Part shown: piece by piece, positions 1 to 54,461 of the stretch
Layout of the letters: the number at the start of each line of letters is the position of its first letter
How positions within the stretch are numbered: position 1 is the first letter of the stretch
IMG/VR virus record: IMGVR_UViG_3300042922_000732
Span: 1-57,719 of that record
Length of the DNA: 57,719 nt
Source of the DNA: a virus
Taxonomy: Duplodnaviria; Caudoviricetes
Reading direction: 5' to 3' (one strand)
Notes under the pieces: generated by a model
Seen by the model: only the letters and a program-made list of their open reading frames with translations
Told to the model about the DNA's origin: nothing
Databases searched by the model: none
Program-made: the position numbers and the translations under genes

Positions 1-172
1 ATAAATTATCAACCCCAACAACTTTTAAATCATTAGTTCTTGGTGCTACTGATAAATATCTTATTGAATTTCCCTTACTTCCTGCATATGGATCTACATA
101 TTTTACATTTTCCAAGCCTTTAATTTTCCTTAATTTATGCAACGGGTAATAAGTCGTCATCAATTTAGCATG
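1..172 (-). pseudogene. 3' part of interrupted host gene (probable FAD-dependent oxidoreductase); continues beyond window start
   Basis: Minus strand reads HAKLMTTYYPLHKLRKIKGLENVKYVDPYAGSKGNSIRYLSVAPRTNDLKVVGVDNL, open to the edge and in frame with the 5' part at the right end; the product name is recalled from similar clostridial proteins. Confidence 0.8.
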
Positions 173-197
173 TGCAATGTGAATAAAACTGCAACAT
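166..197. other. Left attachment junction (core TAGCATG plus phage arm GTGAA…AACTGCAACAT)
   Basis: Core 166-172; AACTGCAACAT (187-197) is the perfect inverse of ATGTTGCAGTT (57466-57476), and GTGAA (179-183) of TTCAC (57480-57484), giving a symmetric 52-bp attP. Confidence 0.9.
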
Positions 198-445
198 TTA
201 AAAAAGTATTTGAAACTACAGAAGAAAGTGTTTCTACATTATATAAAGAACTTCCAGAATACACTACAGCACAAAAAGTTTATAAAGTTAGAATGTTAAA
301 TAATCTCACTCAAAAAGAATTCGCTAATAAGAGTGGGGTTGGATATTCCACAATATGCAAATATGAGACTGGTTATAATACAAGCAAAAATAATATTAAA
401 AAAATATGTAATACATTTAACTTGCCATACGATTATTTTTACTAA
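170..445 (+). CDS. XRE-family HTH domain; likely the C-terminal domain of the integrase in the excised (attP) form
   Basis: VRMLNNLTQKEFANKSGVGYSTICKYETG is a classic XRE HTH; the ATG at 170 is within the att core, has no RBS, and is in the integrase frame after excision. Confidence 0.8.
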   Translation: MCNVNKTATFKKVFETTEESVSTLYKELPEYTTAQKVYKVRMLNNLTQKEFANKSGVGYSTICKYETGYNTSKNNIKKICNTFNLPYDYFY

Positions 446-487
446 TAAAAAACTGGAAATTCTTTTTTGAATTCCAGTTTTTTATTA
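443..487. terminator. Bidirectional intrinsic terminator
   Basis: AAAAAACTGGAA…TTCCAGTTTTTT hairpin between convergent ORFs. Confidence 0.8.
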
Positions 488-547
488 TCTTCTTTTTTTA
501 ATAATTAAAATTACGCGCTTAGTTTTTTTGTCACTCTCACCACTCAT
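485..547 (-). CDS. 20-aa basic micro-ORF MSGESDKKTKRVILIIKKRR (AimX-position candidate)
   Basis: Strong RBS AGGGGAG upstream; own promoter TTTACA-17-TATAAT at 624-652. Confidence 0.5.
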   Translation of the reverse strand: MSGESDKKTKRVILIIKKRR

Positions 548-623
548 TTGTTATTCGCTCCCCTTATATCTTCCTTTAATTTCCCTTAGGAGGTTGATGC
601 ATAAACGTTTCTTTATGTAAATT

Positions 624-652
624 ATTATATAAAGTTATTCAATATTTGTAAA
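624..652 (-). promoter_or_regulatory. Sigma-A-like promoter
   Basis: TTTACA (652-647), 17-bp spacer, TATAAT (629-624). Confidence 0.6.
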
Positions 653-658
653 ATAATA

Positions 659-696
659 AAAAGTTGCCAAAACTCTATTGAATTTTGGCAACTTTT
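659..696. terminator. Terminator downstream of the pro-peptide gene
   Basis: AAAAGTTGCCAAAA…TTTTGGCAACTTTT inverted repeat. Confidence 0.8.
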
Positions 697-751
697 CTAG
701 TTTTTTTTGCAACATTTTTAACATTTTTTCTTTTAATTTGCTTTGATTATT

Positions 752-910
752 TTACCATCCGCCTGGATCATTAGATTGTAGATGAATTTGATTAGTGCTA
801 GACATTGTGCCATTTTTAGCATTGTTAGTACTTGTAGTTTGACTTGATGCAAATGCAACATTTGTTAATAACATTGATGTTGCAACCACTGCTAATATAA
901 TTTTTTTCAT
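752..910 (-). CDS. Secreted RRNPP signalling pro-peptide, 52 aa (MKKIILAVVATSMLLTNVAFA-SSQTTSTNNAKNGTMSSTNQIHLQSNDPGGW)
   Basis: GGAGGT RBS; Sec signal peptide ending AFA; S/T/N-rich linker; C-terminal SNDPGGW; directly downstream of an HTH-TPR receptor; absent from the ORF track. Confidence 0.9.
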   Translation of the reverse strand: MKKIILAVVATSMLLTNVAFASSQTTSTNNAKNGTMSSTNQIHLQSNDPGGW

Positions 911-1022
911 GAATAATACCTCCATATAAGTTTACTTTTTTTACATTTCTTCTGTAAACATTGTAACATATTAACAGAATAAGACGATTAAAAAATATAT
1001 ATTTCCTAATTTTTTAATTTTA

Positions 1023-2324
1023 TCAAAGATTTTCTATTAATTTATCATTAAATAGATTGCTTTTCTCCTCATTTCGATATTTATAATACTTTACAAGTTT
1101 GGCATAAATCTTATTGTAATCCACCATTAAGCTTTTCTCTTTTTTAATCAATGCTTCTATATTGGATTCATCTTCTCTTTCCATATAAATTTCTAATAAA
1201 TCATTAAGTGTTTTTTTCGTAACCTCTGTATCGTCTGCCTTATTTTTTTCACATACTTCTAATGCTCTTAGAAGATATGACTCGTAATCTCCATTTATAG
1301 ATTTATAAACCAACGATGCAAAATATAAATTTTCCGCTAAATACCAATTTCCAGGATTATGTTCTAAAGATTTATCAATTGATATTTGTGCATCTTTATA
1401 TTTCCTTTGTTTTAAATAAACTTCTGCTACATTCCTGTATGTCATTGCTATCAAACCTTTATCATTTATTCGAGCTACTGGTTCCATTATTTCAATAAAT
1501 CTATTGGCAGCTTCTTCTAATTCATTGTTATCAAGCAGGCAATTTGCATATAGCATCTTAATGTCAAGTTTCCTTCTATCATTCAACTCAAATTCATCTG
1601 TAAGTTTTTTTAAATATTTTTTTGCTTTATCATATTTTTCGGTTTTCTTATATATTAATGCTTTGTTAAAATAAATTCGCTGAGAAATTTCAGAATTATT
1701 TAAGTCTTTATTTATTTTAAGCGCATAATTAAGCTGTTCTAATGCTGGTTCATAATTTTTCCGTGCAACATCGTTCCGAGATTTGCTAATATATAAATTA
1801 GCTTCACCATGTATGTTATTTGAATTAAGACATATTTTTAATCCGCAGCTACACATTTGATCACTTCTTGTATATTTTTCCTTAAAGTAATAAATAGTTG
1901 CAGCTAATTTATACATTTCAATTTTCATATCATCTTTAATATTATATTTTTTTATTAAATTTTCTCCATAATTAAGTTTCCCCTCTAAATCACACAGTTC
2001 TTTAATATCATTTAAGGCATGTATAATACTTTTTGAAAATACATTGTTAGCTTGACTATCTTCATCTTCAGTTAATTGCTCAGCTGTAATGTGATCAATC
2101 TTAATCTCTTTCATATCTATAACTTTATTAATGTTCTTTGTAATTCCAATAGCCAATTTATAGCTTAAATGCTTCTTGCCATTTTCAATCCGACTAATTA
2201 AAAATTTTGAACATACTCTGTCGGCAACATCATCTTGAGTTGCTCCAATGAGTATTCTAAAATTCTTTAATTTTAAATTTGGAGACATAATTTCATTATC
2301 AAACATTTTTTGCTTTCCCTTCAT
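1023..2324 (-). CDS. RRNPP-family peptide receptor / transcription regulator (N-terminal XRE HTH plus TPR repeats)
   Basis: LKNFRILIGATQDDVADRVCSKFLISRIENG HTH followed by multiple TPR-like helical repeats; adjacent pro-peptide gene. Confidence 0.88.
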   Translation of the reverse strand: MKGKQKMFDNEIMSPNLKLKNFRILIGATQDDVADRVCSKFLISRIENGKKHLSYKLAIGITKNINKVIDMKEIKIDHITAEQLTEDEDSQANNVFSKSIIHALNDIKELCDLEGKLNYGENLIKKYNIKDDMKIEMYKLAATIYYFKEKYTRSDQMCSCGLKICLNSNNIHGEANLYISKSRNDVARKNYEPALEQLNYALKINKDLNNSEISQRIYFNKALIYKKTEKYDKAKKYLKKLTDEFELNDRRKLDIKMLYANCLLDNNELEEAANRFIEIMEPVARINDKGLIAMTYRNVAEVYLKQRKYKDAQISIDKSLEHNPGNWYLAENLYFASLVYKSINGDYESYLLRALEVCEKNKADDTEVTKKTLNDLLEIYMEREDESNIEALIKKEKSLMVDYNKIYAKLVKYYKYRNEEKSNLFNDKLIENL

Positions 2325-2394
2325 TCTGGAATTTAATATATACCTAACAAAAGAAAAGCTTGTATATGTAAATTGGTTCTATATTATATAAATA

Positions 2395-2507
2395 TAGACA
2401 AATATTCATAAATATAATATAATTACATTGCTAACATTCTTTTGTTAGTATTGGACGCTCTGCAATGCAAGATGGTCAAATCAGTGTATTGCAGAGTTAT
2501 TTTTTCT
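2395..2507 (+). ncRNA. Candidate ~80-nt small RNA divergent from the RRNPP receptor
   Basis: TAGACA-17-TATAAT (2395-2423), hairpin CTAACA…TGTTAG, terminator CTCTGCAAT…ATTGCAGAG plus T-rich run; no ORF. Confidence 0.5.
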
Positions 2508-2643
2508 CTAAGATTAATTTTACTAAAATATAGTAAAACATAAAACTGCTTTTTATTCCCCAAATTAGACTTTTAATTCTCATTTTACCAATTATTTCCC
2601 TTGTAAACATTTTCTTTTATAGAATTACATCTAAACCATTAGA

Positions 2644-3066
2644 TCACACCCATCCCAACAGTTTTCTTTCTAGCAAATCCCAATCATATTCTCTAGCCTC
2701 AAAATTATCAAACTTTGTTTTTGGATTCCACCCACCAGAGTCATTATCTACCACCTTAAAAGCATTCTTCACTTTACTTATGTTATTAATGGCCCAAAGA
2801 GTATATCCATACAAATTGTTTGCGCCCTTATCAGCTGCATAATTAAATGCCTCAATTATTTTATCAACTTTATCTTTAGCAACTTTTAAAAGACTCTTAG
2901 CCTGTTTCTGTGTAAATCCTAATTCTATTATTTTATTTTCCTCTTCTGTAATCTCTGTAAAATGTATTTGTCCGGCTACTGGAGGTTTTCCATCGCTATC
3001 TACTGGCTTATTTATAAACAAATACTTTAGTAATTTATAAGTGTTCTTCTTACCGACTTTAGTCAT
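2644..3066 (-). CDS. Protein resembling the C-terminal part of DnaD/DnaB-like replication initiators (possibly truncated)
   Basis: C-terminal KFDNFEAREYDWDLLERKLLGW resembles clostridial phage and host replication-initiator tails. Confidence 0.55.
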   Translation of the reverse strand: MTKVGKKNTYKLLKYLFINKPVDSDGKPPVAGQIHFTEITEEENKIIELGFTQKQAKSLLKVAKDKVDKIIEAFNYAADKGANNLYGYTLWAINNISKVKNAFKVVDNDSGGWNPKTKFDNFEAREYDWDLLERKLLGWV

Positions 3067-3223
3067 TATTATTCCACCCCCTTAATTCATTTCACCGTAT
3101 AAATCATTTTATTGTATGAAACAATATTAAATCATTTTGCCGTATAAGTCAACCATTATCATTATACTTTTTATTCACTTTGTGATATAATTAATTTATA
3201 AGATAAAAAACGGAGTTGATTGA

Positions 3224-3385
3224 ATGGATAAAAAAATATCTAAAAATGAAAACCGAGAAAAACTAACTGTTCTTGTAGATAAAGACATTAAAAAGGATAT
3301 GAAAAAAGAAATTGTAGATCTTGATTGCTCTATGGGAGAATTTATAGAAATGATTTTTAATATTTACAAGGATACTAAAAAATAA
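3224..3385 (+). CDS. Small ribbon-helix-helix (CopG-like) DNA-binding protein, 53 aa
   Basis: GGAG RBS; REKLTVLVDKDIKKDMKKEIVDLDCSMGEFIEMIF has an RHH pattern; followed by a terminator hairpin. Confidence 0.6.
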   Translation: MDKKISKNENREKLTVLVDKDIKKDMKKEIVDLDCSMGEFIEMIFNIYKDTKK

Positions 3386-3512
3386 GACATTAGAATTAAA
3401 TCTGATGTCTTATTTTTTTGTTCTAATACTAAGTAGTATGTATAGATAATTAATATTTTTTAATTAATATAAGCTTAAGTAATATAGCGTTCTAAAAGTG
3501 TAACCTTTTTCG

Positions 3513-3578
3513 AGTTCCATTAATGAAACCTAATCTAGTTACTATTTTAGAACTTGATTAGGTTTCATTAATGGAACT
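3513..3578. repeat. 23-bp perfect inverted repeat; each arm holds a 16-bp quasi-palindrome GTTCCATTAATGAAAC
   Basis: AGTTCCATTAATGAAACCTAATC (3513-3535) / GATTAGGTTTCATTAATGGAACT (3556-3578). Confidence 0.85.
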
Positions 3579-4108
3579 TTTGTAATATTTTAGTATTGTG
3601 AATTAAACACGCTTACATTTATCTCTATATTTGCCAAAATCCCTATAAGTTAATTCTGTGATTTTATACATATCACTTTATGGACATTCCTGAATAGTAT
3701 TTAAAACTATTTGCCTTACAGATAAATCATGTCTCGCTAATCCATAGCAGGATAATACATTATGAACTAACATCCAATCATGTCTTTGTTGTGTTATTAA
3801 CCTATCTATAAAATAATACTGATCGCCTTGATATACCTTATTTAATTTAACTGCACATATTTTATAAGGTATTATGCTATTCTCTTTTAAATAACTCCAA
3901 ATCTTTGATTATCAAATAAATCACCATAACCATCTGAAGGAGTAAATAAATAATAATGTTCTTCTTCCATAAATCCTCTCTTAATCTAATTTATGTAAAT
4001 TTCCAAACGGCAAATATCCTGCAAAATCCTTTATAAACAAAAAAAGCAAGGGAAACTTAAGGAAAAATACAACTAGTGTATTCCTCAAATCCTTGCAATT
4101 ACTTGCTG

Positions 4109-4394: not shown

Positions 4395-5528
4395 TTAAAA
4401 TGGCATATCATCATCTTCTTCATATTCTATTTTTATTGTCTCCAATCTCGTTGTTATATTACTAATTAATATGTTTTGTCTAGTATTGCTTAACTTTTTA
4501 AAAAATGCATAAAACTCTCTAATTGTTTCAATCTTAATATCTTTTTTGGTAATATATGTATAACCACAATCAATGAAACAGGATATTAAATCATTATTAT
4601 TTTGAAGCACTTGTTCCAGTAAAGAATTTTTAATTACCGATTCCAGTGAATTAATTATTTTTTTAGGTTCATTTACAGTACTAAGTCCATTCTTTATAAA
4701 TTTTATATGCGAAATTAGTTCTTCTACAAAAGTTATATAAATAGATTTTTCATAATTAGTAAAATCTATTTCTACAAATGTATCTTCAGAAAGACATTGC
4801 ATAATTTCATAAAATGATTCAATTCGTTTCTTTGGATTGGCTACTATCATTTTATCAATTATATGTTGATATTTAAAATCAGAAACATCATAATCTTCTA
4901 ACAACTTATTAAATAACTTTCCAAGAAAATATATTTCGGTTTGATGATTATACTTTCTGTCATGTATTTCTTCTGGAAAATCACTCACTGGCCAATTAAG
5001 TAATATACTTGCTTCTTTCTCAGATTCAATTTCAATCTTTTTTCCAAATCCAAAATCTATTATTTTAACAACTCCATCATTGGTTATAAGTATATTTTCA
5101 TTTCTAATATCTCTATGTAATACTTTATTCTGCTCTAGATATTCAAACCCTTCGATTAACTGGATAAATATACTTTCAAAAACTTCATTACTTTGAAAAA
5201 ATAAATAGTTATCGATAGTTTCTCCTTCAATATTTTCCATAAGAATATATCCAGTAGTATGTTCGGGATATAAAAAATAATTATATATCCTCACAATATT
5301 TTTGTGTGATAATAAATACATTATTTTTATCTCATCTATAAATCTAGGAAAATACTCATTTTGCTTGTCAGCATTATAAGTAGAATATTTTTTACAAACA
5401 AAATTCATTCCTGTGATTTCATCTTTTACTAGAATAGCTTTCCCAGTGCCACCTCGTCCAACTTTCCTTTGATACGTGTACTCTTTTTGCCTTAAAAACT
5501 TTACTATATGACCTGGATTCATATCCAT
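4395..5528 (-). CDS. Hanks-type Ser/Thr protein kinase, putative anti-phage
   Basis: GRGGTG P-loop, VCKK, HRDIRNEN, IDFGFG; C-terminus EEDDDMPF. Confidence 0.9.
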   Translation of the reverse strand: MDMNPGHIVKFLRQKEYTYQRKVGRGGTGKAILVKDEITGMNFVCKKYSTYNADKQNEYFPRFIDEIKIMYLLSHKNIVRIYNYFLYPEHTTGYILMENIEGETIDNYLFFQSNEVFESIFIQLIEGFEYLEQNKVLHRDIRNENILITNDGVVKIIDFGFGKKIEIESEKEASILLNWPVSDFPEEIHDRKYNHQTEIYFLGKLFNKLLEDYDVSDFKYQHIIDKMIVANPKKRIESFYEIMQCLSEDTFVEIDFTNYEKSIYITFVEELISHIKFIKNGLSTVNEPKKIINSLESVIKNSLLEQVLQNNNDLISCFIDCGYTYITKKDIKIETIREFYAFFKKLSNTRQNILISNITTRLETIKIEYEEDDDMPF

Positions 5529-5864
5529 TTATTTCACCCGCCTCAATAAAATAATATATATTAATATCTAAATAATAATTTACTTTGAGTATTTTTTCTG
5601 CATCTATTTCCTAATTGTAGCATACTCTACCAATAAAGTACTAGTGTAAATTAATTACTACTATTATTACAAATATCACTTTATGAGATTTAAACTCACG
5701 ATTTCTGGATTCTGTTTTATATCAAAAATTCTTTTATCAAATGCTCTTATACATTCTTATTACTAGGTTGTACATTCTTATAATATCTTGCACTTTCTTA
5801 ACTTTAATAAAACTTATGTGTTAAAAATATGTTAATATGTGTTATAGAATTTTACTTGTTTCTT

Positions 5865-5915
5865 ATAACTTTAAAAGACCAAGAAAATAAATCTCGGTCT
5901 TTTAAAGTCATTTTC
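5865..5915. repeat. Cassette-end hairpin, copy 2
   Basis: ATAACTTTAAAAGACCAAGA…TCTCGGTCTTTTAAAGTCATTTTC. Confidence 0.7.
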
Positions 5916-6018
5916 AAACAAATCCAAAATATCATTACCTACTTCGAATTATAAATCTATCTAAATTTTTTTCTAAATTAAAATAAGATATTATTTTAAA
6001 TAGATGTAGAACCGAAAC

Positions 6019-7149
6019 TTATAATACAGTGTTTACCCATTCATAAATACTGTTTACAGTACCTAAACACAATCTGTAAGTATTCTCAAAATAATCCCTA
6101 TCTATTTTAGCTATTTCATTCTCACTTAGGCTATGAATATTAAATTTCTCCATATATTTTTTATCAACTTTCCCTTGATTATGGAGATGAATATTTCTTC
6201 TATTCAAACATTCCATCAAAGTACTAAAATTTTGAACAATGTAATCTACTCCCAAATCTTTTAATATCTCAACTAAATCTTTAATGTATTTTCCTTTTAA
6301 TCCCTCATTAACTATATTATCTTTAAATTCATTAAAGTTTTCATAGTTACTCAAATCCCTCATTTTCATGTTTTTATCTTTATTGTATAACTTATCTATA
6401 TATTCAAAAAACCTATTATTCATAAGTAACTTAACCATATCAAAAACCACTGCATCAAAACCTGCTACCAAAAGTATAAACCCCTGCCTATATATATTAA
6501 GAATATTTTTCTCATTATTCATGTTAAATAGTATTTCGGCTTGTCCTATTTCTTCTGAAACATATTCTAATGCATCAATTTCTTCAATTATTACTTTATA
6601 TAAAAAAGTATTTTTTATATATTTATCTTCTCCTCTAGATACTTTTTCATTATATTCATCAACGAAATCCATATTATGTATCTTTTGAAAATCTAATAGA
6701 GACTTTATTTCTTTATCAAAATACCTACCCAATTCCTCTAAAGTTTGAATTGGCTCTTCAATCTCTTCATAACCCATTGTTACATATGTTAATACAGATT
6801 CAATAGTATCATCTTTCTTTACATTCTCAATTATCCCATGCATCAATATCTCATTAGCTGTTCCTTTAATTTCTTCAATTTTACTAGGTAACATTAAATA
6901 ATACTTTTTTAACGTTTCTAATATTAGACTAGGTGTTGATAAATATATATTTTCATTTTCTTCTTCATCATAGGAATCAGTGTATATTTTAAACTTCAAT
7001 AATATTTTAAAAATATTATCTATATTCCTCCACTCTGGTAAACTTGTATTCTCTTCCATGAAGTCAATATACTTCTTGATACTTTCACTTTCTTTTTCAA
7101 ATCTATTCCTAATATCAACCAAACTTTCTTTATTATCAATCATAAACAA
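6019..7149 (-). CDS. Putative HEPN-domain RNase (C-terminal RxxxxH)
   Basis: RRNIHLHNQG motif preceded by RQGFILLVAGFDAVVFD helix, as in RiboL-PSP/MAE_28990-like HEPNs. Confidence 0.65.
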   Translation of the reverse strand: MFMIDNKESLVDIRNRFEKESESIKKYIDFMEENTSLPEWRNIDNIFKILLKFKIYTDSYDEEENENIYLSTPSLILETLKKYYLMLPSKIEEIKGTANEILMHGIIENVKKDDTIESVLTYVTMGYEEIEEPIQTLEELGRYFDKEIKSLLDFQKIHNMDFVDEYNEKVSRGEDKYIKNTFLYKVIIEEIDALEYVSEEIGQAEILFNMNNEKNILNIYRQGFILLVAGFDAVVFDMVKLLMNNRFFEYIDKLYNKDKNMKMRDLSNYENFNEFKDNIVNEGLKGKYIKDLVEILKDLGVDYIVQNFSTLMECLNRRNIHLHNQGKVDKKYMEKFNIHSLSENEIAKIDRDYFENTYRLCLGTVNSIYEWVNTVL

Positions 7150-7192
7150 TCCTCATTCCATTTTATAAAGTCTCAAGTTATCTTTTTACATA

Positions 7193-7528
7193 TTAAATTA
7201 ATATTTCTTTAAATTCAGTTAATATTGATTCTACACACTCCTTTGATAGTTCTCCCAGTTCTTTATCTTCAATATAACAATACTTGTCTATAAAATTATC
7301 AATTGCAATCATTTTTTCCTTATCCTCATAACATCTAGCTAATGTTGATACTAGCGCAACATACAACCCACCTTTTGTTCTTATTGAATCTGCAAGAACT
7401 ATTCCACCATAGGTAAACATTTTGATGTCAGAATATCTATTATCCGCAAGTGAAGTGAATTTTGCTCTTATTATATGTTCACATCTTATAGATAGATTTA
7501 CTAAATCCGAATTTGTCATAATATCCAT
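7193..7528 (-). CDS. Hypothetical protein
   Basis: AGGAG RBS; co-oriented within the cargo cluster. Confidence 0.7.
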   Translation of the reverse strand: MDIMTNSDLVNLSIRCEHIIRAKFTSLADNRYSDIKMFTYGGIVLADSIRTKGGLYVALVSTLARCYEDKEKMIAIDNFIDKYCYIEDKELGELSKECVESILTEFKEILI

Positions 7529-7544
7529 CTCCTTTTTTCATCTT

Positions 7545-7961
7545 CTAATCTTCTAACACAGTAATATTTACTTGTCTTAAATAATCATCGAAATCTCTGT
7601 AATGAGGAATACAAGCATTTATTAAATTCCCAATAGCATATTGCTTTCTTGTTATTGTCATATCAAATATTCTTGGATATGGAATAAAACTTCTAATACC
7701 ATCTATGTCTACTCCATAAAATGCCTCTACCATATTTCCATTATACATAAGAAGATATCTTTTCTTATATGGTCTATTGTTAAAAAAACTATGTGCCCAT
7801 TGTTCACCAAATTCCTCATCTCTTTCATCTGGCCAGCTTCTATCACTCAATATTGATATATTAATATTATTTCTATAAATACAAAGTCCAAAGTCATCAT
7901 CATAATTCCAATCACTGGGATAACTTTCCATTATCATTTGTATAAACTCATCATAATTCAT
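7545..7961 (-). CDS. Hypothetical protein
   Basis: AGGGGTG RBS; TATAAT upstream. Confidence 0.75.
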   Translation of the reverse strand: MNYDEFIQMIMESYPSDWNYDDDFGLCIYRNNINISILSDRSWPDERDEEFGEQWAHSFFNNRPYKKRYLLMYNGNMVEAFYGVDIDGIRSFIPYPRIFDMTITRKQYAIGNLINACIPHYRDFDDYLRQVNITVLED

Positions 7962-8138
7962 TATTTACACCCCTTTCTATATTATAATAATTATTCATAT
8001 AATAGCAAAATCCTCTTTTATTTAAAACTTTTTAACATAACTTTATCATGTCAAACTTCATTAAATAATTTATCTATAATGCTAATTAGCCTAAAATAAA
8101 AAGAGATATTGCGCTTACACACAATATCTCTTTTTATT

Positions 8139-9851
8139 TTATTCTAACATTTTTGTATTCATGAAACTACGTACAAATTCTTTATTCTCATTATACTCGA
8201 ATTCATTAAGTAATTCATATTTGTTATTTTTAAGCTTAATTATATTATTAAATTTATACTTAGAATATTCTTTTTCTTCAAAGCCGATAGAAGATACAAT
8301 CAATTGTACTTCTTCACTAACTTCACTAAATAAATAATCAAATAGTTCTCTCTTCTTTTCTTTGTCTGTTTCAACATTATTAGGACTATCTAATACCAAT
8401 GGAAATCTTATTGCATTTGGATTAAATTCATCTCTAATTTTCAACAAATTAATATACCACATGATAGTTGCGATTGGCTTATTGCTACCTCCAGCTGTAA
8501 ATACATTACTTACATCTAATAAATTTTTGTTTTTTATTTCTTTTAATCCAAATCTTTCTTTATCTTTTATCATAAGCTCATAATATCTAGAATTTATTTT
8601 CTTTTTAGCTTCATCATAGTTCCTTTTCTCTTTATTTAACTCCTTCAATCTTTCATCTATGGTTAAAAGGTTTGATGTTATTGTTCCTAATTCCCGTATT
8701 ATAGTTTCCCTAAGTTCAATATATCCTTTATATTTTAAAATATCATTTATTTCTCTTGAGTTAATACTTATTTTTTCTTCGTATACATTTAATATTTCTA
8801 AAATATCTCTATACTTACTTTCTTCATTCTTAATCTTTTTCTCTATATTTATTAATATAAATTCTAAATCTTGTTTTAAAAATAATATGTCTTCTATCGT
8901 ATTGTATTTTTGGATACGAACTTCTAACTCATCCTCAATCCTTGATTTACAATATGGACAAATATGATTGATAATTTGTTTTACTTCTTTTTCTGTATCA
9001 TTGTTAAATACGTCTAATTCTTTAACATTGGAAATTAATTCTTCTTTTTGATTTCGAAGATTAATTAGGGATTTTTTTATTTTGTTTAAATTATCAATTA
9101 TCGTATTATATTCATCCTTGTATTGTTCTACTTCTATTTTCAGACTTTCTATATTCGTTGAATAATCAGTTCCTTTAATACTTTTATTAATTTTTTCGAG
9201 CATATTTTGATTAATAGTTCTCTCATCTTGATACTCTTTATGATTTCCTTTTAATTTTTCCAATTCTTTAATAAGTGTATAATATTCTCTAGTATACACA
9301 TTAAAATGATAATATAACACTTTGTCTTTATAATTAGAGTATTGTTGCAGATTCTTGAATGAACTAAAGTTTGTACCACGCATTTCATCTTGGTCTATAT
9401 AATTAAGTAAATAATTATATGCAGGTGGAGTTATTTCTAACTTATCATCTTTTTTATTTGGTAATTCTACTGCAAAATCAAATAATTCTTTTAAATATTC
9501 TGCAAGTTCTTCTCTAGTAATAGTTTTATATAATTCCTTAAAACCATCTTTTAAATATATCTTGAATAATCTTCCATGCCTAAATATATAGTATGATTTT
9601 TCTTTTACAATAAATTCTAAAATGAAAATTTTATTCTCCACATCCCATTGACCATCAAAAATACAATCTGCACCCAAAGAATGATAAATACTTTTTAGTA
9701 TAATAGATTTTCCTCTTTTAGTTCCATCTATTTCACTCGAAGTTATAATATTTCGTCCTTTAGTAAAGGGTATGACTTTAGCTTTCTTTTCATTTATTGA
9801 AAAAATATATAATTTAGTTATTATCAATCTATTCATAAACACCCTCTCCAT
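8139..9851 (-). CDS. lmuB: SMC-like ABC ATPase, Lamassu LmuB-like
   Basis: Walker A GTKRGKS, long coiled coils, CPYC zinc hook, signature-like AGGSN, Walker B LVLDSP. Confidence 0.8.
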   Translation of the reverse strand: MERVFMNRLIITKLYIFSINEKKAKVIPFTKGRNIITSSEIDGTKRGKSIILKSIYHSLGADCIFDGQWDVENKIFILEFIVKEKSYYIFRHGRLFKIYLKDGFKELYKTITREELAEYLKELFDFAVELPNKKDDKLEITPPAYNYLLNYIDQDEMRGTNFSSFKNLQQYSNYKDKVLYYHFNVYTREYYTLIKELEKLKGNHKEYQDERTINQNMLEKINKSIKGTDYSTNIESLKIEVEQYKDEYNTIIDNLNKIKKSLINLRNQKEELISNVKELDVFNNDTEKEVKQIINHICPYCKSRIEDELEVRIQKYNTIEDILFLKQDLEFILINIEKKIKNEESKYRDILEILNVYEEKISINSREINDILKYKGYIELRETIIRELGTITSNLLTIDERLKELNKEKRNYDEAKKKINSRYYELMIKDKERFGLKEIKNKNLLDVSNVFTAGGSNKPIATIMWYINLLKIRDEFNPNAIRFPLVLDSPNNVETDKEKKRELFDYLFSEVSEEVQLIVSSIGFEEKEYSKYKFNNIIKLKNNKYELLNEFEYNENKEFVRSFMNTKMLE

Positions 9852-10896
9852 ATCTTACTAAAACTAATATGACTAATGCTTTCTTATCATCTGTAGTATA
9901 TTCTAATGTAAATTCATTCGAAAATATTTCTATTAATATTTCTGTAGTTTCTTCGAAAGTTTTATCTAATTCTTCCAAATGTTCATTAATATATTGGGCA
10001 ATCATCTCTTCAATTTTTTTTAATTGCTTATTTATAGTTAATTCTTTTACTATTTTACCAAGAGCTATATTCATCTTTGTATTATCTCTAAATCCATCAT
10101 ATATTTCATTAATTTTTGTCTTGGCTTTTTTAGTTGATTCATCTGCGACATTAATATATTTTTTTATGATTGTATTAAATTCTGATTTTGTTATACCTTT
10201 CTTACTAATAACTTCTGAATAATCATTACATTGTAATTCATAGTTTGCCTTCACAGCAATTGTATCTGATAATGCTCTATATAACGTCACTACCTTTTTA
10301 GGTTCTTCTCCTGTAATTTTCATAAAGAAATTAACTGTTTGTCCAATTAAACTGTTGGATGGTTCAAACAAATCCATAGAAGTAAAAATATAGTACGAAC
10401 TATTTAAATCTATATCTTCTTCTATATTTAATTCTTTTTTTAGGTTTTCATTAACCAATTCCATACTTTTTTCATCTAAATTTACTAGTTCAAATTCCTT
10501 TACAGATGATTTTATTTTCTTATCTGCTGTTTTTAAAGGTGTATTTACCACTATGGCTATTTTACTTTTTAAATCGCCTTCTTCATTATCAATAATATTT
10601 TTCAACACATATACTTTTCCTAATATAGAATTTCCTTGAGCATCAGGACCACTTATTTTTTTTATTGAATATGGAGAGCCCTTGCTACTTGTTTTAATTT
10701 GATAAAACTCCATAGACTCATTTAAATGCAATTCTATATCACATACATAATCAAATACCATTACAAAATCATTTTCCGACTCGTATATGTTATATATCTT
10801 CTCCAAACCCCATAACATTTCATTCCTAAATCTATTTTTAGAACGTGAACCAGATAAATCACAAGGTAATTTCATATACAAACTATCTTTATCCAA
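9829..10896 (-). CDS. lmuA: Cap4/DUF4297-type endonuclease effector, Lamassu LmuA-like
   Basis: SGSRSKNRF…DYVCDIE…FYQIKT PD-(D/E)xK-like N-terminus; overlaps the SMC gene. Confidence 0.78.
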   Translation of the reverse strand: MDKDSLYMKLPCDLSGSRSKNRFRNEMLWGLEKIYNIYESENDFVMVFDYVCDIELHLNESMEFYQIKTSSKGSPYSIKKISGPDAQGNSILGKVYVLKNIIDNEEGDLKSKIAIVVNTPLKTADKKIKSSVKEFELVNLDEKSMELVNENLKKELNIEEDIDLNSSYYIFTSMDLFEPSNSLIGQTVNFFMKITGEEPKKVVTLYRALSDTIAVKANYELQCNDYSEVISKKGITKSEFNTIIKKYINVADESTKKAKTKINEIYDGFRDNTKMNIALGKIVKELTINKQLKKIEEMIAQYINEHLEELDKTFEETTEILIEIFSNEFTLEYTTDDKKALVILVLVRYGEGVYE

Positions 10897-11185: not shown

Positions 11186-12064
11186 TCATTTTATCCAAGC
11201 TCCACTTGAATCTACTCTATATCCATCTGGTGTAATTGTATTACATGCCATAGAACCACTTGAAGAGAAATAGTAACACTCTCCATCTATCCAAAGCCAT
11301 TCATTTTTAGCCATCTTGCATGACTCTTTAAGATAATACCACTTTCCACCATCTTGTATCCATGTACTTTCTCTTGCATATCCTTGACTATCAAAAGAAT
11401 ACCATTCTCCATCTATACTTTCCCATGAATCTTTATAATAATATTTTTCCTCTAAATTGGTGCAATACCACCACCCAGTACTATTTTTATTCCACCCTAA
11501 TTTCCATTCATTCTTAGCTGATGTTGAATATTCAAAATCTCCTGCCACAAATGAAGTTCCAGTAATACCACTAACTACTGCATTTACTAAATTTTCTTTA
11601 TTAGCTTCATATCTAACCATATCTGAATAAGTATCAATAAAGCATAGCTCTACAAGCATACTTGCACAAGGTGAATTTCTAATTACATAAAGGCTAGAAC
11701 CATCTTTAATCCCTCTGTTAACAAAACCTAATGAAACTATATTATTTAGTATATTTCTTGAACTTGTTAGCTCTCTAGCTCCATAAGTATATACTTCCGT
11801 TCCAACTCCTCCTCCTGCATTCAAATGAATAGATACAAACAAATCTGCATCACTTGGGCAGTTATTAACCCTAGTGCTTAAACTAGAGCTTACACTATTC
11901 GAACTATCTGGAGCAACTGCAATTACTATATTCCCTAAAGCTTCTAACTTACTTTTAACCATTTTTCCTATCTCTCTTGTACATTGTTGTTCTTTATATC
12001 CGTTTCCATCTGCACCTGTATCTGCTCCACTAAGACAATGACCATAATCTAATGCTATTTTCAT
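11186..12064 (-). CDS. Endolysin: N-acetylmuramoyl-L-alanine amidase (Amidase_3) plus cell-wall-binding repeats
   Basis: DYGH…E…SIHLNA…LVELCFID; C-terminal GxWYY repeats. Confidence 0.93.
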   Translation of the reverse strand: MKIALDYGHCLSGADTGADGNGYKEQQCTREIGKMVKSKLEALGNIVIAVAPDSSNSVSSSLSTRVNNCPSDADLFVSIHLNAGGGVGTEVYTYGARELTSSRNILNNIVSLGFVNRGIKDGSSLYVIRNSPCASMLVELCFIDTYSDMVRYEANKENLVNAVVSGITGTSFVAGDFEYSTSAKNEWKLGWNKNSTGWWYCTNLEEKYYYKDSWESIDGEWYSFDSQGYARESTWIQDGGKWYYLKESCKMAKNEWLWIDGECYYFSSSGSMACNTITPDGYRVDSSGAWIK

Positions 12065-39472: not shown

Positions 39473-40321
39473 CTAGTCATTTTCAAGCTCAGTAATTAAT
39501 TCTTTTGTTTTTTTATCAAATCGTCCAATTTTATACTTTTGAGGACTCATATTAACATGCCAATTATCTTCCACACTTAGATTATTGAGAATATATAATT
39601 CAAATGATTCTTGATATCGATCTCCAAACCTATTTTCCAAGATCAATTCAATATTTATCTTCTTTTGTAATATATCTTTAATTTTATCTTTTGAGAAATA
39701 AAAAAATACTTCTTTTGAATCGCCTACATTCAGATATAACTTATTGTTTGATTTATTAGTTGTGTTATTTGTCCAGTGGACAATATTTGAACCATCATCT
39801 TTAGTTGAATTTCCATTTTTAAAATTAACTAGAGTATATGTATTACTTGTATTAATAAGCTTTAATTTTAAACAGGCTACAGCCGAATCGAACTGATTAA
39901 GTCGTCCAATTTCGATGCATACTCCTTGATTAAATCTTTCCATATCTATTAAAGAATATTCTCCTAAATCCCAATCAGCTACAAGAATAAATGGTTGAAA
40001 ATCAAATATTAATCTTCTGTTTTCAATAGAACTAATGCGCTTGTTTATATAATTTGATTTTATATTTTGCCATAATGCTAATACTCCTAAAGAAATTGTT
40101 CCTATAAATGTAAGAACTGAACCATAAAAGGATAGAAATTCTCCAGCCTTGATATAGTCAGGTAAAAGTGGAAACCAGTGACCTATAAAATATATACACC
40201 ATATAATAATAGGAATCAAAAAGCTTATAGATATAGCAATTTTTATTTTTAAATAGAAAGTTGGATAATCTGATTTTAATTGGCTAATTAATAGTTTAAT
40301 TTCTTTTTCTTTATCAGTCAT
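39473..40321 (-). CDS. Membrane-anchored hypothetical protein (moron)
   Basis: Two N-terminal TMs; LSFYGSVL motif; downstream terminator. Confidence 0.7.
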   Translation of the reverse strand: MTDKEKEIKLLISQLKSDYPTFYLKIKIAISISFLIPIIIWCIYFIGHWFPLLPDYIKAGEFLSFYGSVLTFIGTISLGVLALWQNIKSNYINKRISSIENRRLIFDFQPFILVADWDLGEYSLIDMERFNQGVCIEIGRLNQFDSAVACLKLKLINTSNTYTLVNFKNGNSTKDDGSNIVHWTNNTTNKSNNKLYLNVGDSKEVFFYFSKDKIKDILQKKINIELILENRFGDRYQESFELYILNNLSVEDNWHVNMSPQKYKIGRFDKKTKELITELEND

Positions 40322-40508
40322 ATAAAAGCACCTCTATATTTTTATATAGTTTTCTTCCAAGAATTTCTAACTACTCCTTGAATCTCCTATTTTCATCTTG
40401 CAATTCTTTAATCCTCTTATCATTAGACTACTACAAAGTGTATCTGCTTATTTACTACATAACCTATAAATTATTCAATAAAAAAATCTACTAGTTTAAA
40501 AATTATTA

Positions 40509-41240
40509 TCATTTAACTTCACTTTCTAATTTCTGAAATAACTCTTTTTTATATTTATAATATGTGTTTCTTGCTAGTCCTGCCAGCTTCATAGTTTCAA
40601 CATCATTCAATGATCCCTGAAAATCTTTACTATATTTTAATATTTGTTCTTTCGCTTCAATACTTTTTTTTGTAGTTAATTTAATTCCTTTTTTCTGTCC
40701 AATCTGTCTTCCATTTAATCTAGCTGTTTCTATTCCTTCTTTTGTTCTCTGATGTAGATCCGCTACTTCTTTTTCTGATTGTATGAAAGCTAGTTTTATT
40801 TGTTCTTTTGCCAGAGCTAACAAATACTTATTTATACCATCTAATATAAAATCAACATTAGTACCTGTCATTTCAACATTATTTGTAAGTGCCTTTTTAT
40901 AGGTGCTTGTGTTTATGTGCTGTTCTCTTAAGAATATCAATTCTATACCTTTATTAAATAATTCCTCATATAGCTTATATCCTTCTTCAGCATTTCTGCT
41001 CATACGTGATACAGAGTCAAATACTATTGTATCGCCTTCTGAAATCTTACTTAACAATTTATTAAACTCTTTTCTACCTTCTATTTTAGTTCCAGTAAAT
41101 GCTTCATCAATTATTATTACATTAGGATATTCTGCTAATATATTTCTATGTTGTCGCTCTATTGATTGTTTATTAGTTGATATTCTGCAATAACCATATA
41201 TTTTATTCATTGCTCTCACCCCGTATATTTGTAATATCAT
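40509..41240 (-). CDS. Second small serine recombinase (resolvase family)
   Basis: YGYCRISTNKQ, DSVSRMSR; TTTTGATACT repeats upstream. Confidence 0.9.
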   Translation of the reverse strand: MILQIYGVRAMNKIYGYCRISTNKQSIERQHRNILAEYPNVIIIDEAFTGTKIEGRKEFNKLLSKISEGDTIVFDSVSRMSRNAEEGYKLYEELFNKGIELIFLREQHINTSTYKKALTNNVEMTGTNVDFILDGINKYLLALAKEQIKLAFIQSEKEVADLHQRTKEGIETARLNGRQIGQKKGIKLTTKKSIEAKEQILKYSKDFQGSLNDVETMKLAGLARNTYYKYKKELFQKLESEVK

Positions 41241-48082: not shown

Positions 48083-48115
48083 TCCCTAATTCTCCTATAC
48101 ATTTTTTGTAAGATT

Positions 48116-48340
48116 TTAAAGTCTACTATCATCAAATAAAAATTTTTCTCTTTTTAGCGCTTCTCCACTATTACTTTCAATATCACATTCTCTAACTTCA
48201 TATAGACTTCTATATTTTTTATATGTTATTGCTGTAGTTTCCTTTATTTTAAATGTATCAACTAAGCCTTTTAATATTTTCTCCCTTGGAGCATCCTTAT
48301 TTTTATTCAAGAAATCACGTATCTTTTTAGGTATAGCCAC
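48116..48340 (-). CDS. Hypothetical protein
   Basis: GTG start with RBS; in operon. Confidence 0.6.
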   Translation of the reverse strand: MAIPKKIRDFLNKNKDAPREKILKGLVDTFKIKETTAITYKKYRSLYEVRECDIESNSGEALKREKFLFDDSRL

Positions 48341-48356
48341 ATCTCTTCCCTCTTTT

Positions 48357-48599
48357 CTAATTTACAATTTGGGTAATATACCACATATCAAATATTTCAT
48401 CTGGCAATATGTATGTACACTTTTGCCAATTTGTTATTGTTGAATTATAAAACTTCAAATTCTTCTCTTTTGAAAATTTTTCTATTATATAACTATCACC
48501 ACTGCTTTTGCTTGTAATAATTACATTCCCATCTAGACCACTTACCCAGGCTTCAATAAACGTATATTCTTTTGACTTATCGATTTTATTAATATCCAT
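48357..48599 (-). CDS. Hypothetical protein
   Basis: AGGTGG RBS; in operon. Confidence 0.65.
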   Translation of the reverse strand: MDINKIDKSKEYTFIEAWVSGLDGNVIITSKSSGDSYIIEKFSKEKNLKFYNSTITNWQKCTYILPDEIFDMWYITQIVN

Positions 48600-48712
48600 A
48601 TTTCCACCTTTCTTATATTTTTATAAAGAGAGCTTTACGCCCTCTTATTTTTCTGCAGTAACTTTAACATTAACTTGTAACCCCTAATGCTCCGTATAGT
48701 CCTGCAGGTTAA

Positions 48713-49756: not shown

Positions 49757-49783
49757 TCTCTTTTCCTCACATAATCAATTCTT

Positions 49784-54287: not shown

Positions 54288-54461
54288 TCATTTAATATAA
54301 TGATGAGATCTAATTCTTAATTCAAAGTACCTTTTCATCGCTTCGGTTCTCTTTTCTGGATTTAATTCTCTAACTCCACCTTTAAATATTTGTTGAATAT
54401 TAATTATTACTTCTTTAGCTTCTTCTGTTAATTCTTGAGTTTCATTCAATAGTTCTTTCAT
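54288..54461 (-). CDS. 57-aa hypothetical protein
   Basis: AAGGAGGT RBS in repeat unit; MKELLNETQELTEEAK…. Confidence 0.6.
   Translation of the reverse strand: MKELLNETQELTEEAKEVIINIQQIFKGGVRELNPEKRTEAMKRYFELRIRSHHYIK

What the first reader, a model, noticed from the sequence alone, without database searches (positions are those of the whole stretch)
443..2324. Arbitrium-like RRNPP communication system in a clostridial prophage (receptor, SNDPGGW pro-peptide, AimX-positioned unit)
Seen: a 433-aa HTH-TPR receptor, then an unannotated 52-aa Sec-exported pro-peptide ending QSNDPGGW, a terminator, and a separately promoted small transcript, all next to the left att junction. Known: aimR-aimP-aimX order in SPbeta/phi3T, and clostridial Qsr/Qsp peptides that are C-terminal and Trp-ending. 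The CI has no autocleavage domain and I recognised no ImmA-like protease. Inference: peptide density may control lysis-lysogeny, excision or host sporulation.
Basis: partly seen in the sequence, partly recalled or inferred. Interest (0 to 1): 0.88.

Follow-up and report, generated by a model that had tools for sequence, protein, structure and literature searches.

The report
Phage-borne clostridial peptide signalling module
A Clostridium prophage carries a receptor and secreted-peptide signalling pair copied from a bacterial family that normally switches sporulation-brake genes, but here its output promoter drives only a tiny RNA that points at a split-off piece of the phage's own integrase gene.

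Summary
Window 752-2324 (- strand) encodes an HTH-TPR receptor and a 52-aa Sec-type pro-peptide ending SNDPGGW. A terminator and a separately promoted ~170-nt unit follow, about 300 bp from attL (core 166-172).

It is not an AimR/arbitrium homologue. It belongs to a Clostridium-restricted RRNPP family found in 8 of 128 scored genus genomes, 20 copies. All 20 copies have the pro-peptide. By motif, 16 have a spo0E-like gene behind the same conserved terminator-promoter junction, the layout published for QssR/QssP.

In the phage that promoter drives a 20-codon ORF that ends at a two-way terminator. Facing it is an HTH segment that, in the excised phage, is the in-frame 3' end of the serine integrase gene. 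The other three phage-context relatives whose downstream DNA is visible also carry a short ORF facing an HTH gene. In two of them the HTH gene is the cI-like repressor.

Related elements at the same att site lack the module, so it is cargo. It sits beside a Lamassu system and a defence-type kinase.

Prophage-borne clostridial RRNPP systems are already in print (Bernard 2021, 2023). This is a new variant, and its function is untested. The scan earlier noted a different (MazF-TPR) peptide system in another Clostridium prophage.

The parts
1023..2324 (-). RRNPP-type receptor: N-terminal XRE-like HTH plus TPR domain (433-aa ORF; likely start at 2306, 427 aa)
   Evidence: 21 relatives at 37-66% identity.
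752..910 (-). 52-aa Sec-type pro-peptide (MKK, hydrophobic core, AFA) with a tail ending SNDPGGW
   Evidence: A homologous pro-peptide lies downstream of the receptor in 20 of 20 genus copies. Alignment A5.
658..697 (-). Intrinsic terminator of the receptor-peptide operon
   Evidence: The hairpin is kept through different stem sequences in 7 relatives.
624..652 (-). Conserved output promoter (-35 TTTACA 652-647, 17-nt spacer, -10 TATAAT 629-624) directly after the terminator
   Evidence: Single profile hit in the window, E 2.4e-6. Also present in L052, L062 and L070.
446..618 (-). Predicted ~170-nt output RNA holding a 20-codon ORF (547->485, Shine-Dalgarno AAGGGGAG) and an anti-Shine-Dalgarno stretch (598->588)
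   Evidence: No expression data are held.
446..483 (.). Two-way terminator (hairpin about 453-477 between an A-run and a T-run) shared by the output RNA and the convergent HTH segment
170..445 (+). XRE-HTH coding segment facing the output unit. In the excised phage it is the in-frame 3' end of the integrase ORF.
   Evidence: HTH_3 E 2.2e-11. In-frame continuity through the att core in this phage and in the G003 element.
166..172 (.). attL core (identical to 57486-57492 at attR)
2395..2507 (+). Conserved divergent unit upstream of the receptor: promoter TAGACA (2395-2400), 17-nt spacer, TATAAT (2418-2423); then a ~80-nt transcript with hairpin CTAACA-N6-TGTTAG (2431-2448) and terminator hairpin 2458-2496 plus T-run
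   Evidence: Single profile hit, E 8.4e-16.
2344..2353 (.). 10-bp word whose inverted copy lies at 2439-2448. The two bracket the divergent promoter region and are a candidate operator pair (inference only).
   Evidence: Read. A related TT(G/T)TTAG word is conserved at both places in relatives.

Best explanation
This is a phage-borne member of a Clostridium HTH-TPR (Qss-like) RRNPP quorum-sensing family.

Inferred steps:
1. The 52-aa precursor is exported by Sec and cut after AFA.
2. It is trimmed to a C-terminal peptide of about 7-10 residues ending SNDPGGW.
3. After re-import the peptide binds the receptor's TPR domain and changes what the receptor does at DNA.
4. The most likely regulated site is the family's conserved output promoter (652->624), which begins right after the peptide gene's terminator.
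5. A second likely site is the conserved divergent promoter region upstream of the receptor (2344-2450).

Shown:
- In chromosomal relatives the output promoter precedes spo0E-like genes.
- In this phage the spo0E payload is gone. The promoter would drive a ~170-nt RNA with a 20-codon ORF.
- That RNA runs head-on toward an HTH-coding segment, which is the 3' end of the serine integrase gene once the phage is excised.

My committed reading is that the phage has rewired a host sporulation-type quorum module onto its own regulatory genes. That makes it arbitrium-like in logic but not in ancestry.

Sub-confidences:
- Genuine receptor-peptide pair: 0.9.
- Output promoter is the regulated target: 0.65.
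- The output acts on the phage rather than on the host: 0.4.
For: Receptor fold and domains:
-.
- In the Foldseek listing generic TPR proteins (designed CTPR, LGN) rank first. RapI, PlcR and NprR are the best-ranked receptor structures (NprR TMq 0.51).

Pro-peptide and receptor-peptide covariation:
- The pro-peptide is present in 20 of 20 genus copies.
- The signal part is conserved and the tail is variable.
- Tryptophan-ending tails occur in 7 of the 9 receptors of the window's well-supported set (SH-aLRT 99) and in 0 of the other 26 rows.

Predicted complex of receptor and pro-peptide:
- Verdict: weak support. Score 0.40, best of 3 controls 0.02.
- The mark was reached by 58 of 80 solved complexes and 2 of 110 mismatched pairs.
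- Only 7 of those 80 solved complexes, and both passing mismatches, scored 0.60 or under.
- Run agreement at least 43%; partner pLDDT at least 37.

Output promoter:
- The terminator-promoter junction is conserved in the window and 7 relatives, and in L052, L062 and L070.
- It matches once in the window.
- spo0E-like genes lie behind it in 16 of 20 genus copies. This is by motif; Pfam PF09388 was checked on one relative, E 9.6e-13.
- Feng 2020 (PMC7206700, passages read) places spo0E-like genes immediately downstream of QSS1, 2 and 5. It reports their up-regulation in qssR-complemented strains.

Phage-specific rewiring:
- All 4 distinct phage contexts with visible downstream DNA have a short ORF, then a two-way terminator, then a convergent XRE-HTH ORF. 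These are the window, L070, L052/L053 and L062/L069.
- In L052 and L062 the HTH gene is the cI-like gene, divergent from an early operon.
- Bernard 2023 (PMC10075063, passages) treats that configuration as indicating control by the quorum system.

Integrase continuity.
Against: - No RNA or protein data exist; no RNA run is held.
- The operator is unknown.
- HTH_3 is below Pfam's cut-off.
- The short payload ORFs are not homologous to one another.
- The convergent HTH ORFs of the window and L070 are not similar, E 0.24. The recurring layout could therefore reflect how common XRE genes are in phages.
- The module sits in an 11-kb cargo island with Lamassu and a defence-type kinase, 53 kb from the cI/cro switch in the integrated state.
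- Related elements at the same att site do without it, so it is dispensable for this phage type.
- Pairing of the output RNA with phage ribosome-binding sites is not exceptional.
- The complex prediction is only weak.
- Direct comparison with QssR1-5 could not be made.
Confidence: 0.45

Rival explanations
1. Host-directed quorum moron. The prophage expresses its own receptor and a private peptide. The receptor acts in trans on the conserved output promoters of the host's own Qss-type cassettes (spo0E-like genes), or listens to the host's similar peptide. Lysogen density would then shift sporulation timing. The local 20-codon unit would be incidental.
For: - The family's usual payload is spo0E-like: 16 of 20 copies, by motif.
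- The N-terminal DNA-binding part holds many of the invariant residues.
- The output promoter is conserved across cassettes, so cross-binding is plausible.
- Genomes with the closest host-gene flank (G001, G002, G005) carry 1-3 such cassettes.
- A C. puniceum cassette peptide ends NNPGGW, against DPGGW here.
- The module lies among lysogenic-conversion-type cargo.
- The phage also carries Spo0E-like and AbrB-like genes.
- Bernard 2021 (bioRxiv 10.1101/2021.07.15.452460, passages) proposed exactly this for clostridial prophages.
Against: - The phage copy has lost the spo0E payload. That loss recurs in all 4 visible phage contexts whose output faces an HTH gene.
- No copy of the output promoter lies near the phage's own Spo0E-like or AbrB-like genes.
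- The host genome is not held, so its cassettes are unknown.
Confidence: 0.28
2. Hitch-hiking or decaying cassette. A chromosomal receptor-peptide-spo0E cassette was captured into the phage's cargo region with its payload truncated. The remaining promoter and 20-codon ORF are relics with no role for the phage.
For: - The nearest full-length relative by identity (61%) is a chromosomal cassette with spo0E, L027.
- Homology to relatives stops just after the -10 box.
- The payload ORFs are unrelated to one another.
- The module is absent from sister elements.
Against: - Receptor and pro-peptide ORFs are intact with good ribosome-binding sites.
- Both conserved cis units are intact.
- Near-identical pieces of the module (0-3 differences per piece) occur in a second metagenome from another study.
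- A 59%-identical module with the same layout sits in another complete provirus, L070.
Confidence: 0.12
3. Regulator of the neighbouring cargo: the 140-aa ORF, the defence-type kinase and the Lamassu genes upstream on the same strand. Density would tune anti-phage defence.
For: Same strand and close proximity. Lamassu LmuA and LmuB and a mad6/PD-T4-6-like kinase lie at 4395-10896.
Against: - The conserved cis units lie only at the module itself.
- Relatives have entirely different neighbours.
- L070 carries the module without a defence island.
Confidence: 0.05

Closest known systems
QssR/QssP systems of Clostridium saccharoperbutylacetonicum (Feng et al. 2020, PMC7206700; passages read)
   Same: - An HTH-TPR regulator is followed in the same operon by a signal-peptide precursor.
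- In relatives of the window's receptor, spo0E-like genes follow immediately, as reported for QSS1, 2 and 5.
- One 59%-identical relative is labelled as from that species.
- Bernard 2021 reports that Qss5 lies in a predicted prophage.
   Different: - The spo0E payload is absent here and is replaced by a 20-codon unit facing an integrase/HTH segment.
- The module is in an apparently complete myovirus-like prophage.
- Identity to QssR1-5 themselves was not measured, because no reference sequence was available.
Arbitrium (AimR-AimP-AimX) of SPbeta/phi3T-like Bacillus phages
   Same: - It is phage-borne.
- The order is receptor, then secreted pro-peptide, then a separately promoted short output unit.
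- Relatives L052 and L062 sit beside a divergent cI-like repressor. This is the configuration that Bernard 2023 links to Stokar-Avihail 2019.
   Different: - No detectable AimR homology.
- The peptide tail ends in GGW.
- The family is mainly chromosomal.
- The output here is 20 codons, and nothing shows that it controls lysis-lysogeny.
Qsr/Qsp of Clostridium acetobutylicum (Kotte et al. 2020, PMC7376267; passages read)
   Same: - It is a clostridial HTH-TPR regulator with a downstream precursor.
- Qsp peptides carry a conserved Pro and a C-terminal Trp, and the active QspB heptapeptide also ends in Trp.
- Here Trp is at -1 and Pro at -4.
   Different: - The receptor is only 25.5% identical over 78% to the pSOL1 regulator at 39690-40829.
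- That is below the 30% identity and 80% coverage rule used by Bernard 2023.
- Pro is at -4 here, not -5.
PlcR-PapR / NprR-NprX of the Bacillus cereus group
   Same: - HTH plus TPR architecture of similar size (NprR).
- Among receptor structures, these give the best sequence-profile match (PlcR N-terminus, E 4.4e-7).
- With RapI, they are the best-ranked receptor structures by Foldseek, behind generic TPR proteins.
   Different: - Low identity: 15-17% in the Foldseek alignments.
- A different genus and a different peptide type.
- No PlcR-box-like site was identified.
AloR-AloP of Paenibacillus polymyxa (Voichek 2020; known to me only through Bernard's text)
   Same: A quorum system with an adjacent spo0E-like gene that is reported to be density-regulated.
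   Different: A different receptor subfamily and organism. It was not compared here.

Membership tests
RRNPP (generic) | Cytoplasmic receptor with a TPR-type peptide-binding domain | tested here: met
   TPR_12 E 1.9e-13 and TPR_2 E 1.9e-11. AF2 all-helical model, pLDDT 92. Foldseek hits to RapI, PlcR, NprR and the phi3T Rap.
RRNPP (generic) | N-terminal HTH in the transcription-factor members | tested here: met
   Pfam HTH_3 is only E 0.003, below the cut-off. The family profile matches the PlcR N-terminus (residues 7-114) at E 4.4e-7, and 434 repressor/Cro weakly.
RRNPP (generic) | Adjacent small gene for a secreted pro-peptide | tested here: met
   52-aa ORF with MKK, a hydrophobic core and AFA. 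Present in 20 of 20 genus copies. No signal-peptide predictor was available, so this was judged by eye.
RRNPP (generic) | Mature peptide binds the receptor after re-import | tested here: inconclusive
   - Complex prediction: weak support, score 0.40 against best control 0.02.
- The mark was reached by 58 of 80 solved complexes and 2 of 110 mismatches.
- Only 7 of those 80 solved complexes, and both passing mismatches, scored 0.60 or under.
- Receptor clade and peptide-tail type covary: W-ending tails in 7 of 9 against 0 of 26.
- Binding itself needs experiment.
Arbitrium (AimR/AimP/AimX) | Receptor homologous to AimR | tested here: not met
   - No AimR chain among the 60 shown of 68 PDB profile hits at E<=1.
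- None in the Foldseek rows listed (ranks to 50).
- No AimR/AimP-named model in Pfam or NCBIfam.
- Only the listed rows were visible.
Arbitrium (AimR/AimP/AimX) | Phage-borne, with the order receptor, peptide, separately promoted short output | tested here: met
Arbitrium (AimR/AimP/AimX) | Controls the lysis-lysogeny decision | not testable with these tools
   Only context is available. The window's module is 53 kb from cI/cro when integrated. Relatives L052 and L062 abut a cI-like gene.
QssR/QssP (Feng 2020) | Receptor homologous to QssR1-5 (Bernard 2023 rule: at least 30% identity over at least 80% coverage to QssR5) | not tested
   No QssR reference sequence could be fetched. Indirect evidence: a 59%-identical relative is named from the same species.
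QssR/QssP (Feng 2020) | Precursor gene downstream in the same operon | tested here: met
QssR/QssP (Feng 2020) | spo0E-like gene(s) immediately downstream (QSS1, 2, 5) | tested here: not met
   None lies within 750 bp downstream in the window. Present in 16 of 20 genus copies by motif.
Qsr/Qsp (Kotte 2020) | Receptor clusters with QsrA-H | tested here: not met
   25.5% identity over 78%, E 4e-5, to the pSOL1 regulator.

The most novel reading that the evidence does not exclude
Integration splits the serine integrase gene. The excised phage encodes a 657-codon Int-HTH ORF. The prophage encodes a 602-codon form with a host-derived tail, and the HTH segment is stranded at attL. The quorum module's output promoter fires head-on into that stranded 3' segment. 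Peptide density could therefore set how much full-length Int-HTH is made from the circular genome, or supply an antisense RNA against it. That would be a quorum-controlled integration/excision directionality switch, mechanistically unlike AimX.
Probability: 0.12. Interest if true: 0.85.

Novelty: new variant of a known kind. Interest (0 to 1): 0.55.

Why it matters
Experimentally proven phage quorum sensing is so far confined to Bacillus arbitrium (and Rap-Phr) systems. Clostridial cases are computational predictions only.

This locus gives a compact, testable case:
- a defined peptide tail;
- two conserved candidate target sites;
- an output whose only neighbour is a piece of the phage's own integrase gene.

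It also shows how a host sporulation-type quorum cassette is rewired when phages capture it. The spo0E payload is lost and replaced by a short unit facing a repressor-type gene.

If the output affects integration, induction or sporulation in solventogenic or soil clostridia, that bears on two things: phage control of spore formation, and strain stability in fermentations.

Tried and rejected
1. Circular-genome idea. The end-spanning ORF is in frame if the record is circular. I rejected this because the two ends are adjacent parts of one host gene. The frame agreement is chance.

2. The 11-mer occurs at 588-598(+) and 54465-54475(-), with three one-mismatch copies. In an RNAduplex scan of the output RNA against 89 translation-start regions, ORF 54288..54461 ranked only 6th. 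The best energy was reached by 4 of 100 shuffles. I do not count this as distinctive.

3. Payload homology. L052 against L062 short ORFs gave no alignment. The 61-68-aa family profile against the L052 ORF gave probability 1.2%. The window and L070 payload DNA do not align past the -10 box.

4. HTH of the window against L070: E 0.24.

5. Int-HTH fusion in L070's record. Not testable, because the provirus record is cut at gene borders and the integrase has its own stop.

6. Phage collection searches. There was no match for the first 6 kb, the end piece or the receptor. The single-protein scan of viral contigs found none. The exact 20-mer from the payload found none in viral contigs.

7. Rfam on 1-3600. 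Only two sub-threshold microRNA-model matches appeared, to a hairpin at 3513-3578.

8. Sequencing runs. No RNA holder is listed. Contigs only were laid.

9. A receptor search of the scan's earlier notes found nothing related.

10. In the tree the careful search did not finish, so the quick tree was used. In 9 of 35 rows my extraction contained a stop, which I replaced by X. L047, L053, L057, L061 and L063-L069 were left out as partial or duplicate.

11. Supplementary files of the papers were closed. The QssP and Qsp alignments and the lists of viral quorum systems in them may bear on membership and novelty.

12. Novelty in print rests on two searches only.
Full report
What is there

The window is a whole IMG/VR-type virus record (57,719 bp, GC 28.8%, CheckV completeness 100, ends classed linear). 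On the minus strand, 1023..2324 encodes a 433-aa protein and 752..925 a small ORF. The receptor has strong TPR hits (TPR_12 E 1.9e-13). Its HTH_3 hit is weak (E 0.003, below cut-off). A profile of 21 family members matches the PlcR N-terminus at E 4.4e-7. The AlphaFold model built on that alignment is confident (pLDDT 92, pTM 0.80).

In the Foldseek PDB listing, generic TPR proteins rank first. RapI, PlcR and NprR (TMq 0.51) are the best-ranked receptor structures, and RapF, phi3T Rap and RapJ-type chains follow. No AimR chain is among the rows listed, which run to rank 50.

The small ORF's second Met (910) has GGAGG 8 nt upstream (read). That gives 52 aa: MKK, a hydrophobic core, AFA, then a polar tail ending QSNDPGGW.

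A terminator lies at 697->658. A TTTACA-17-TATAAT promoter lies at 652->624. Downstream are a 20-codon ORF (547->485, Shine-Dalgarno AAGGGGAG) and a hairpin flanked by an A-run and a T-run, at about 446-483.

Prophage borders

The end pieces of the window are host DNA. The 78-aa piece at 57481-57717 matches a 425-430-aa ORF at 86-94% identity in 5 of 5 Clostridium genomes searched. Window 1-173 and 57486-57719 map to adjacent, slightly overlapping parts of that gene in three genomes where it is intact.

The shared core lies at 166-172 and 57486-57492. The host gene is an FAD-dependent oxidoreductase. My earlier idea that the record is a circular genome is thereby rejected.

The prophage (about 173-57485) has:
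- a large serine integrase (phrog_95, E 3e-109);
- a cI-like HTH just upstream of it and a cro-like gene divergent from it;
- terminase, portal, major head, tail sheath, tape measure and tail fibre genes;
- an amidase endolysin at 11186..12064.

Six-frame searches find no Peptidase_S24 and no ImmA/M78 domain, and the positive controls responded.

Which family

The protein search returned 25 proteins. These were the window's own protein, 21 relatives at 37-66% identity and three at 26-28%. Named ones are all Clostridium, one from C. saccharoperbutylacetonicum at 59%.

A scan of 130 Clostridium-genus genomes (128 scored) found the family in 8, with 20 copies, 1-4 per genome. All 20 have a homologous pro-peptide gene 40-120 nt downstream: 19 by pattern and one with a GTG start by inspection.

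The signal part is conserved. The tails follow H-[LV]-x-[ST]-x-D-[PA]-x, or end in NPGGW, DPDGW or DPKGW.

In a quick maximum-likelihood tree of 35 receptors, the window groups with L027 (a C. puniceum chromosomal cassette) and L070 (a viral contig), SH-aLRT 99. These sit in a 9-row set (SH-aLRT 99) that holds 5 of the 7 rows I labelled as phage context. Tryptophan-ending tails occur in 7 of these 9 and in none of the other 26. This receptor-peptide covariation is what a cognate pair would show.

A structure-based complex test of the receptor with the pro-peptide gave only weak support. The score was 0.40 and the best of 3 controls was 0.02. The mark was reached by 58 of 80 solved complexes and 2 of 110 mismatches. 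Only 7 of those 80 solved complexes, and both passing mismatches, scored 0.60 or under. Run agreement was at least 43% and partner pLDDT at least 37.

The receptor is only 25.5% identical over 78% (E 4e-5) to a C. acetobutylicum pSOL1 Qsr-type regulator. It has no detectable AimR similarity.

The conserved output junction

In 7 cassettes from named genomes, the peptide gene is followed by a terminator whose stem sequence differs between cassettes while the hairpin is kept. A promoter follows at once (-35 TTTGTA or TTTACA, -10 TATAAT). Next come a conserved leader and a spo0E-like gene (PF09388, E 9.6e-13 for one of them), and then a 61-68-aa gene of no known family.

By motif, a spo0E-like gene lies within 1.4 kb downstream in 16 of 20 genus copies: 12 by my first pattern and 4 more by ORF listing.

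This is the layout Feng et al. 2020 describe for QSS1, 2 and 5 of C. saccharoperbutylacetonicum. They report raised spo0E-like expression in qssR-complemented strains (PMC7206700, passages).

The window keeps the terminator and the promoter, but the leader and spo0E are gone. A profile made from the relatives alone finds this unit once in the window (709-624, E 2.4e-6). All other hits have E>1, so there is no second copy near the phage's own Spo0E-like or AbrB-like genes.

A second conserved unit

Upstream of the receptor, 9 relatives and the window share a divergent promoter (TAGACA-17-TATAAT, window 2395-2423). It is followed by a ~80-nt stretch with a small hairpin (CTAACA-N6-TGTTAG, 2431-2448) and a terminator hairpin with a T-run (2458-2507).

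RNAalifold predicts both hairpins. Of the 20 pairs, 6 show changes on both sides. The relatives-only profile hits the window once (E 8.4e-16). No Rfam family matches.

A 10-bp word at 2344-2353 recurs inverted at 2439-2448. A related word is conserved at both places in relatives. I regard this as a candidate operator pair, by inference only.

Cargo, not backbone

Elements related to this prophage sit at the same att site in two other genomes (G003, G005). They share the attL-proximal HTH segment but carry other cargo and no receptor-peptide module.

In the window, the 11 kb between attL and the endolysin also holds:
- Lamassu LmuB (E 1.6e-201) and LmuA (E 1.4e-117);
- a mad6/PD-T4-6-like Ser/Thr kinase.

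Contigs of a second metagenome from another study hold pieces of the module with 0-3 differences per piece.

Phage relatives

Metagenome and viral-contig scans gave 22 and 3 further loci.

In L062/L069 (a 51.6-kb viral contig) and L052/L053, the order is:
1. receptor and peptide;
2. the conserved terminator-promoter and leader;
3. a 35-aa or 37-aa ORF;
4. a two-way terminator;
5. a convergent cI-like HTH gene, divergent from an early operon with DnaD-like and SSB-like genes and, in L062, an ORF with a Spo0E-type SQQLD motif.

Bernard et al. 2023 name this configuration and link it to control of the operon by the quorum system (PMC10075063, passages).

In L070 (a 39-kb provirus, completeness 100, receptor 59% identical, tail ending NDPDGW), the module follows the holin and lysin genes. 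It keeps the junction, drives a 23-codon lysine-rich ORF behind AAGGGGA, and ends at a two-way terminator facing an HTH ORF at the record's end.

So in 4 of 4 distinct phage contexts with visible downstream DNA, the spo0E payload is replaced by a short ORF facing an XRE-HTH ORF. The short ORFs are not homologous to one another. The window and L070 HTH ORFs are not similar either. The recurrence is therefore one of layout only.

The HTH segment is part of the integrase gene

When the two phage arms are joined through the core as in the excised form, the integrase reading frame continues without a stop into the HTH ORF (170-445). This gives 657 codons. The integrated form ends after 602 codons, the last 36 of them in host DNA.

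The G003 element is only about 72% identical in DNA, and it shows the same in-frame continuity. In L070's record the point cannot be tested.

The quorum module's output unit therefore points at the stranded 3' end of the integrase gene.

How it most likely works

Shown:
- the genes and their signals;
- family membership;
- the two conserved cis units;
- loss of spo0E;
- the att sites;
- the integrase continuity.

Inferred:
- Sec export, cleavage after AFA and trimming to a C-terminal peptide;
- Opp import and binding to the TPR domain;
- regulation of the output promoter, and probably of the divergent region.

Whether the peptide turns the receptor on or off cannot be told.

I rate the role as follows:
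- phage-directed (integration, excision or immunity): 0.4;
- host-directed (sporulation, through cross-talk with host cassettes): about 0.28;
- relic: about 0.12;
- control of the neighbouring defence genes: about 0.05.

Known or new

RRNPP systems in clostridial prophages, and their link to spo0E and abrB, were predicted by Bernard et al. (bioRxiv 2021 and MBE 2023; passages read). Qss and Qsr systems were studied genetically by Feng 2020 and Kotte 2020.

I found no mention in those passages, or in the listings, of the following:
- the conserved terminator-promoter junction;
- the divergent short unit;
- the payload swap in phages;
- an integrase split by integration next to such a module.

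Supplements were closed. I file this as a new variant of a known kind, with moderate interest.

Noticed in passing
55792-57600 and 170-445 (att cores 57486-57492 and 166-172): attP lies inside the serine integrase ORF. The excised form reads 657 codons ending in an XRE-HTH domain. The integrated form reads 602 codons, with the last 36 in host DNA, and the HTH segment is stranded at attL. The G003 element shows the same in-frame continuity. From memory, this recalls Mx8 intP/intX and SSV-type integrases.
   Followed up: partly
8139-10896 and 4395-5528: A Lamassu pair: LmuB E 1.6e-201, and LmuA with a Cap4-type nuclease domain, E 1.4e-117. There is also a stand-alone Ser/Thr kinase matching mad6 and PD-T4-6 defence models (E 9e-37). 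All lie in the attL-proximal cargo island.
   Followed up: partly
53559-53696 and 52224-52463: The phage early region carries a Spo0E-like gene (PF09388, E 2.3e-8) and an AbrB-family gene (TIGR01439, E 7e-13). No copy of the quorum output promoter lies near them.
   Followed up: partly
L025 (G003) and L026 (G005): Related integrative elements occupy the same site in the same host gene in two other Clostridium genomes. They carry different cargo next to attL, including a 1546-aa protein in G003.
   Followed up: partly
window 1-172, run X1: In the probable source metagenome, one contig (depth 46) matches the host flank only up to 172 and then runs on unlike the window. Prophage contigs have depth 15-21. 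This may be an empty site or another occupant, and contig depth is a weak measure.
   Followed up: no
L001, L037, L044, L051, L052, L053, L062 output leaders: A conserved GAACACCAG(G/T)TT word lies in the leader between the output promoter and its first gene in many relatives. It is absent from the window's output RNA, and its function is unknown.
   Followed up: no
L001:5543-5728 and relatives (alignment A7): A well-conserved 61-68-aa protein follows the spo0E-like gene in chromosomal cassettes. It has no Pfam, NCBIfam or PHROG hit.
   Followed up: partly
L002:11394-11588; L001 3397-8774: One relative's pro-peptide carries its C-terminal unit twice in tandem. C. puniceum has two complete cassettes in tandem.
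   Followed up: no
47078-51886: Plasmid-like functions sit inside a tailed prophage: a Rep initiator (phrog_3584), a ParB-like protein and a tyrosine recombinase.
   Followed up: no
3513-3578: A long hairpin matches two microRNA models below their thresholds. This is surely a chance match to a stem-loop, possibly a terminator.
   Followed up: no
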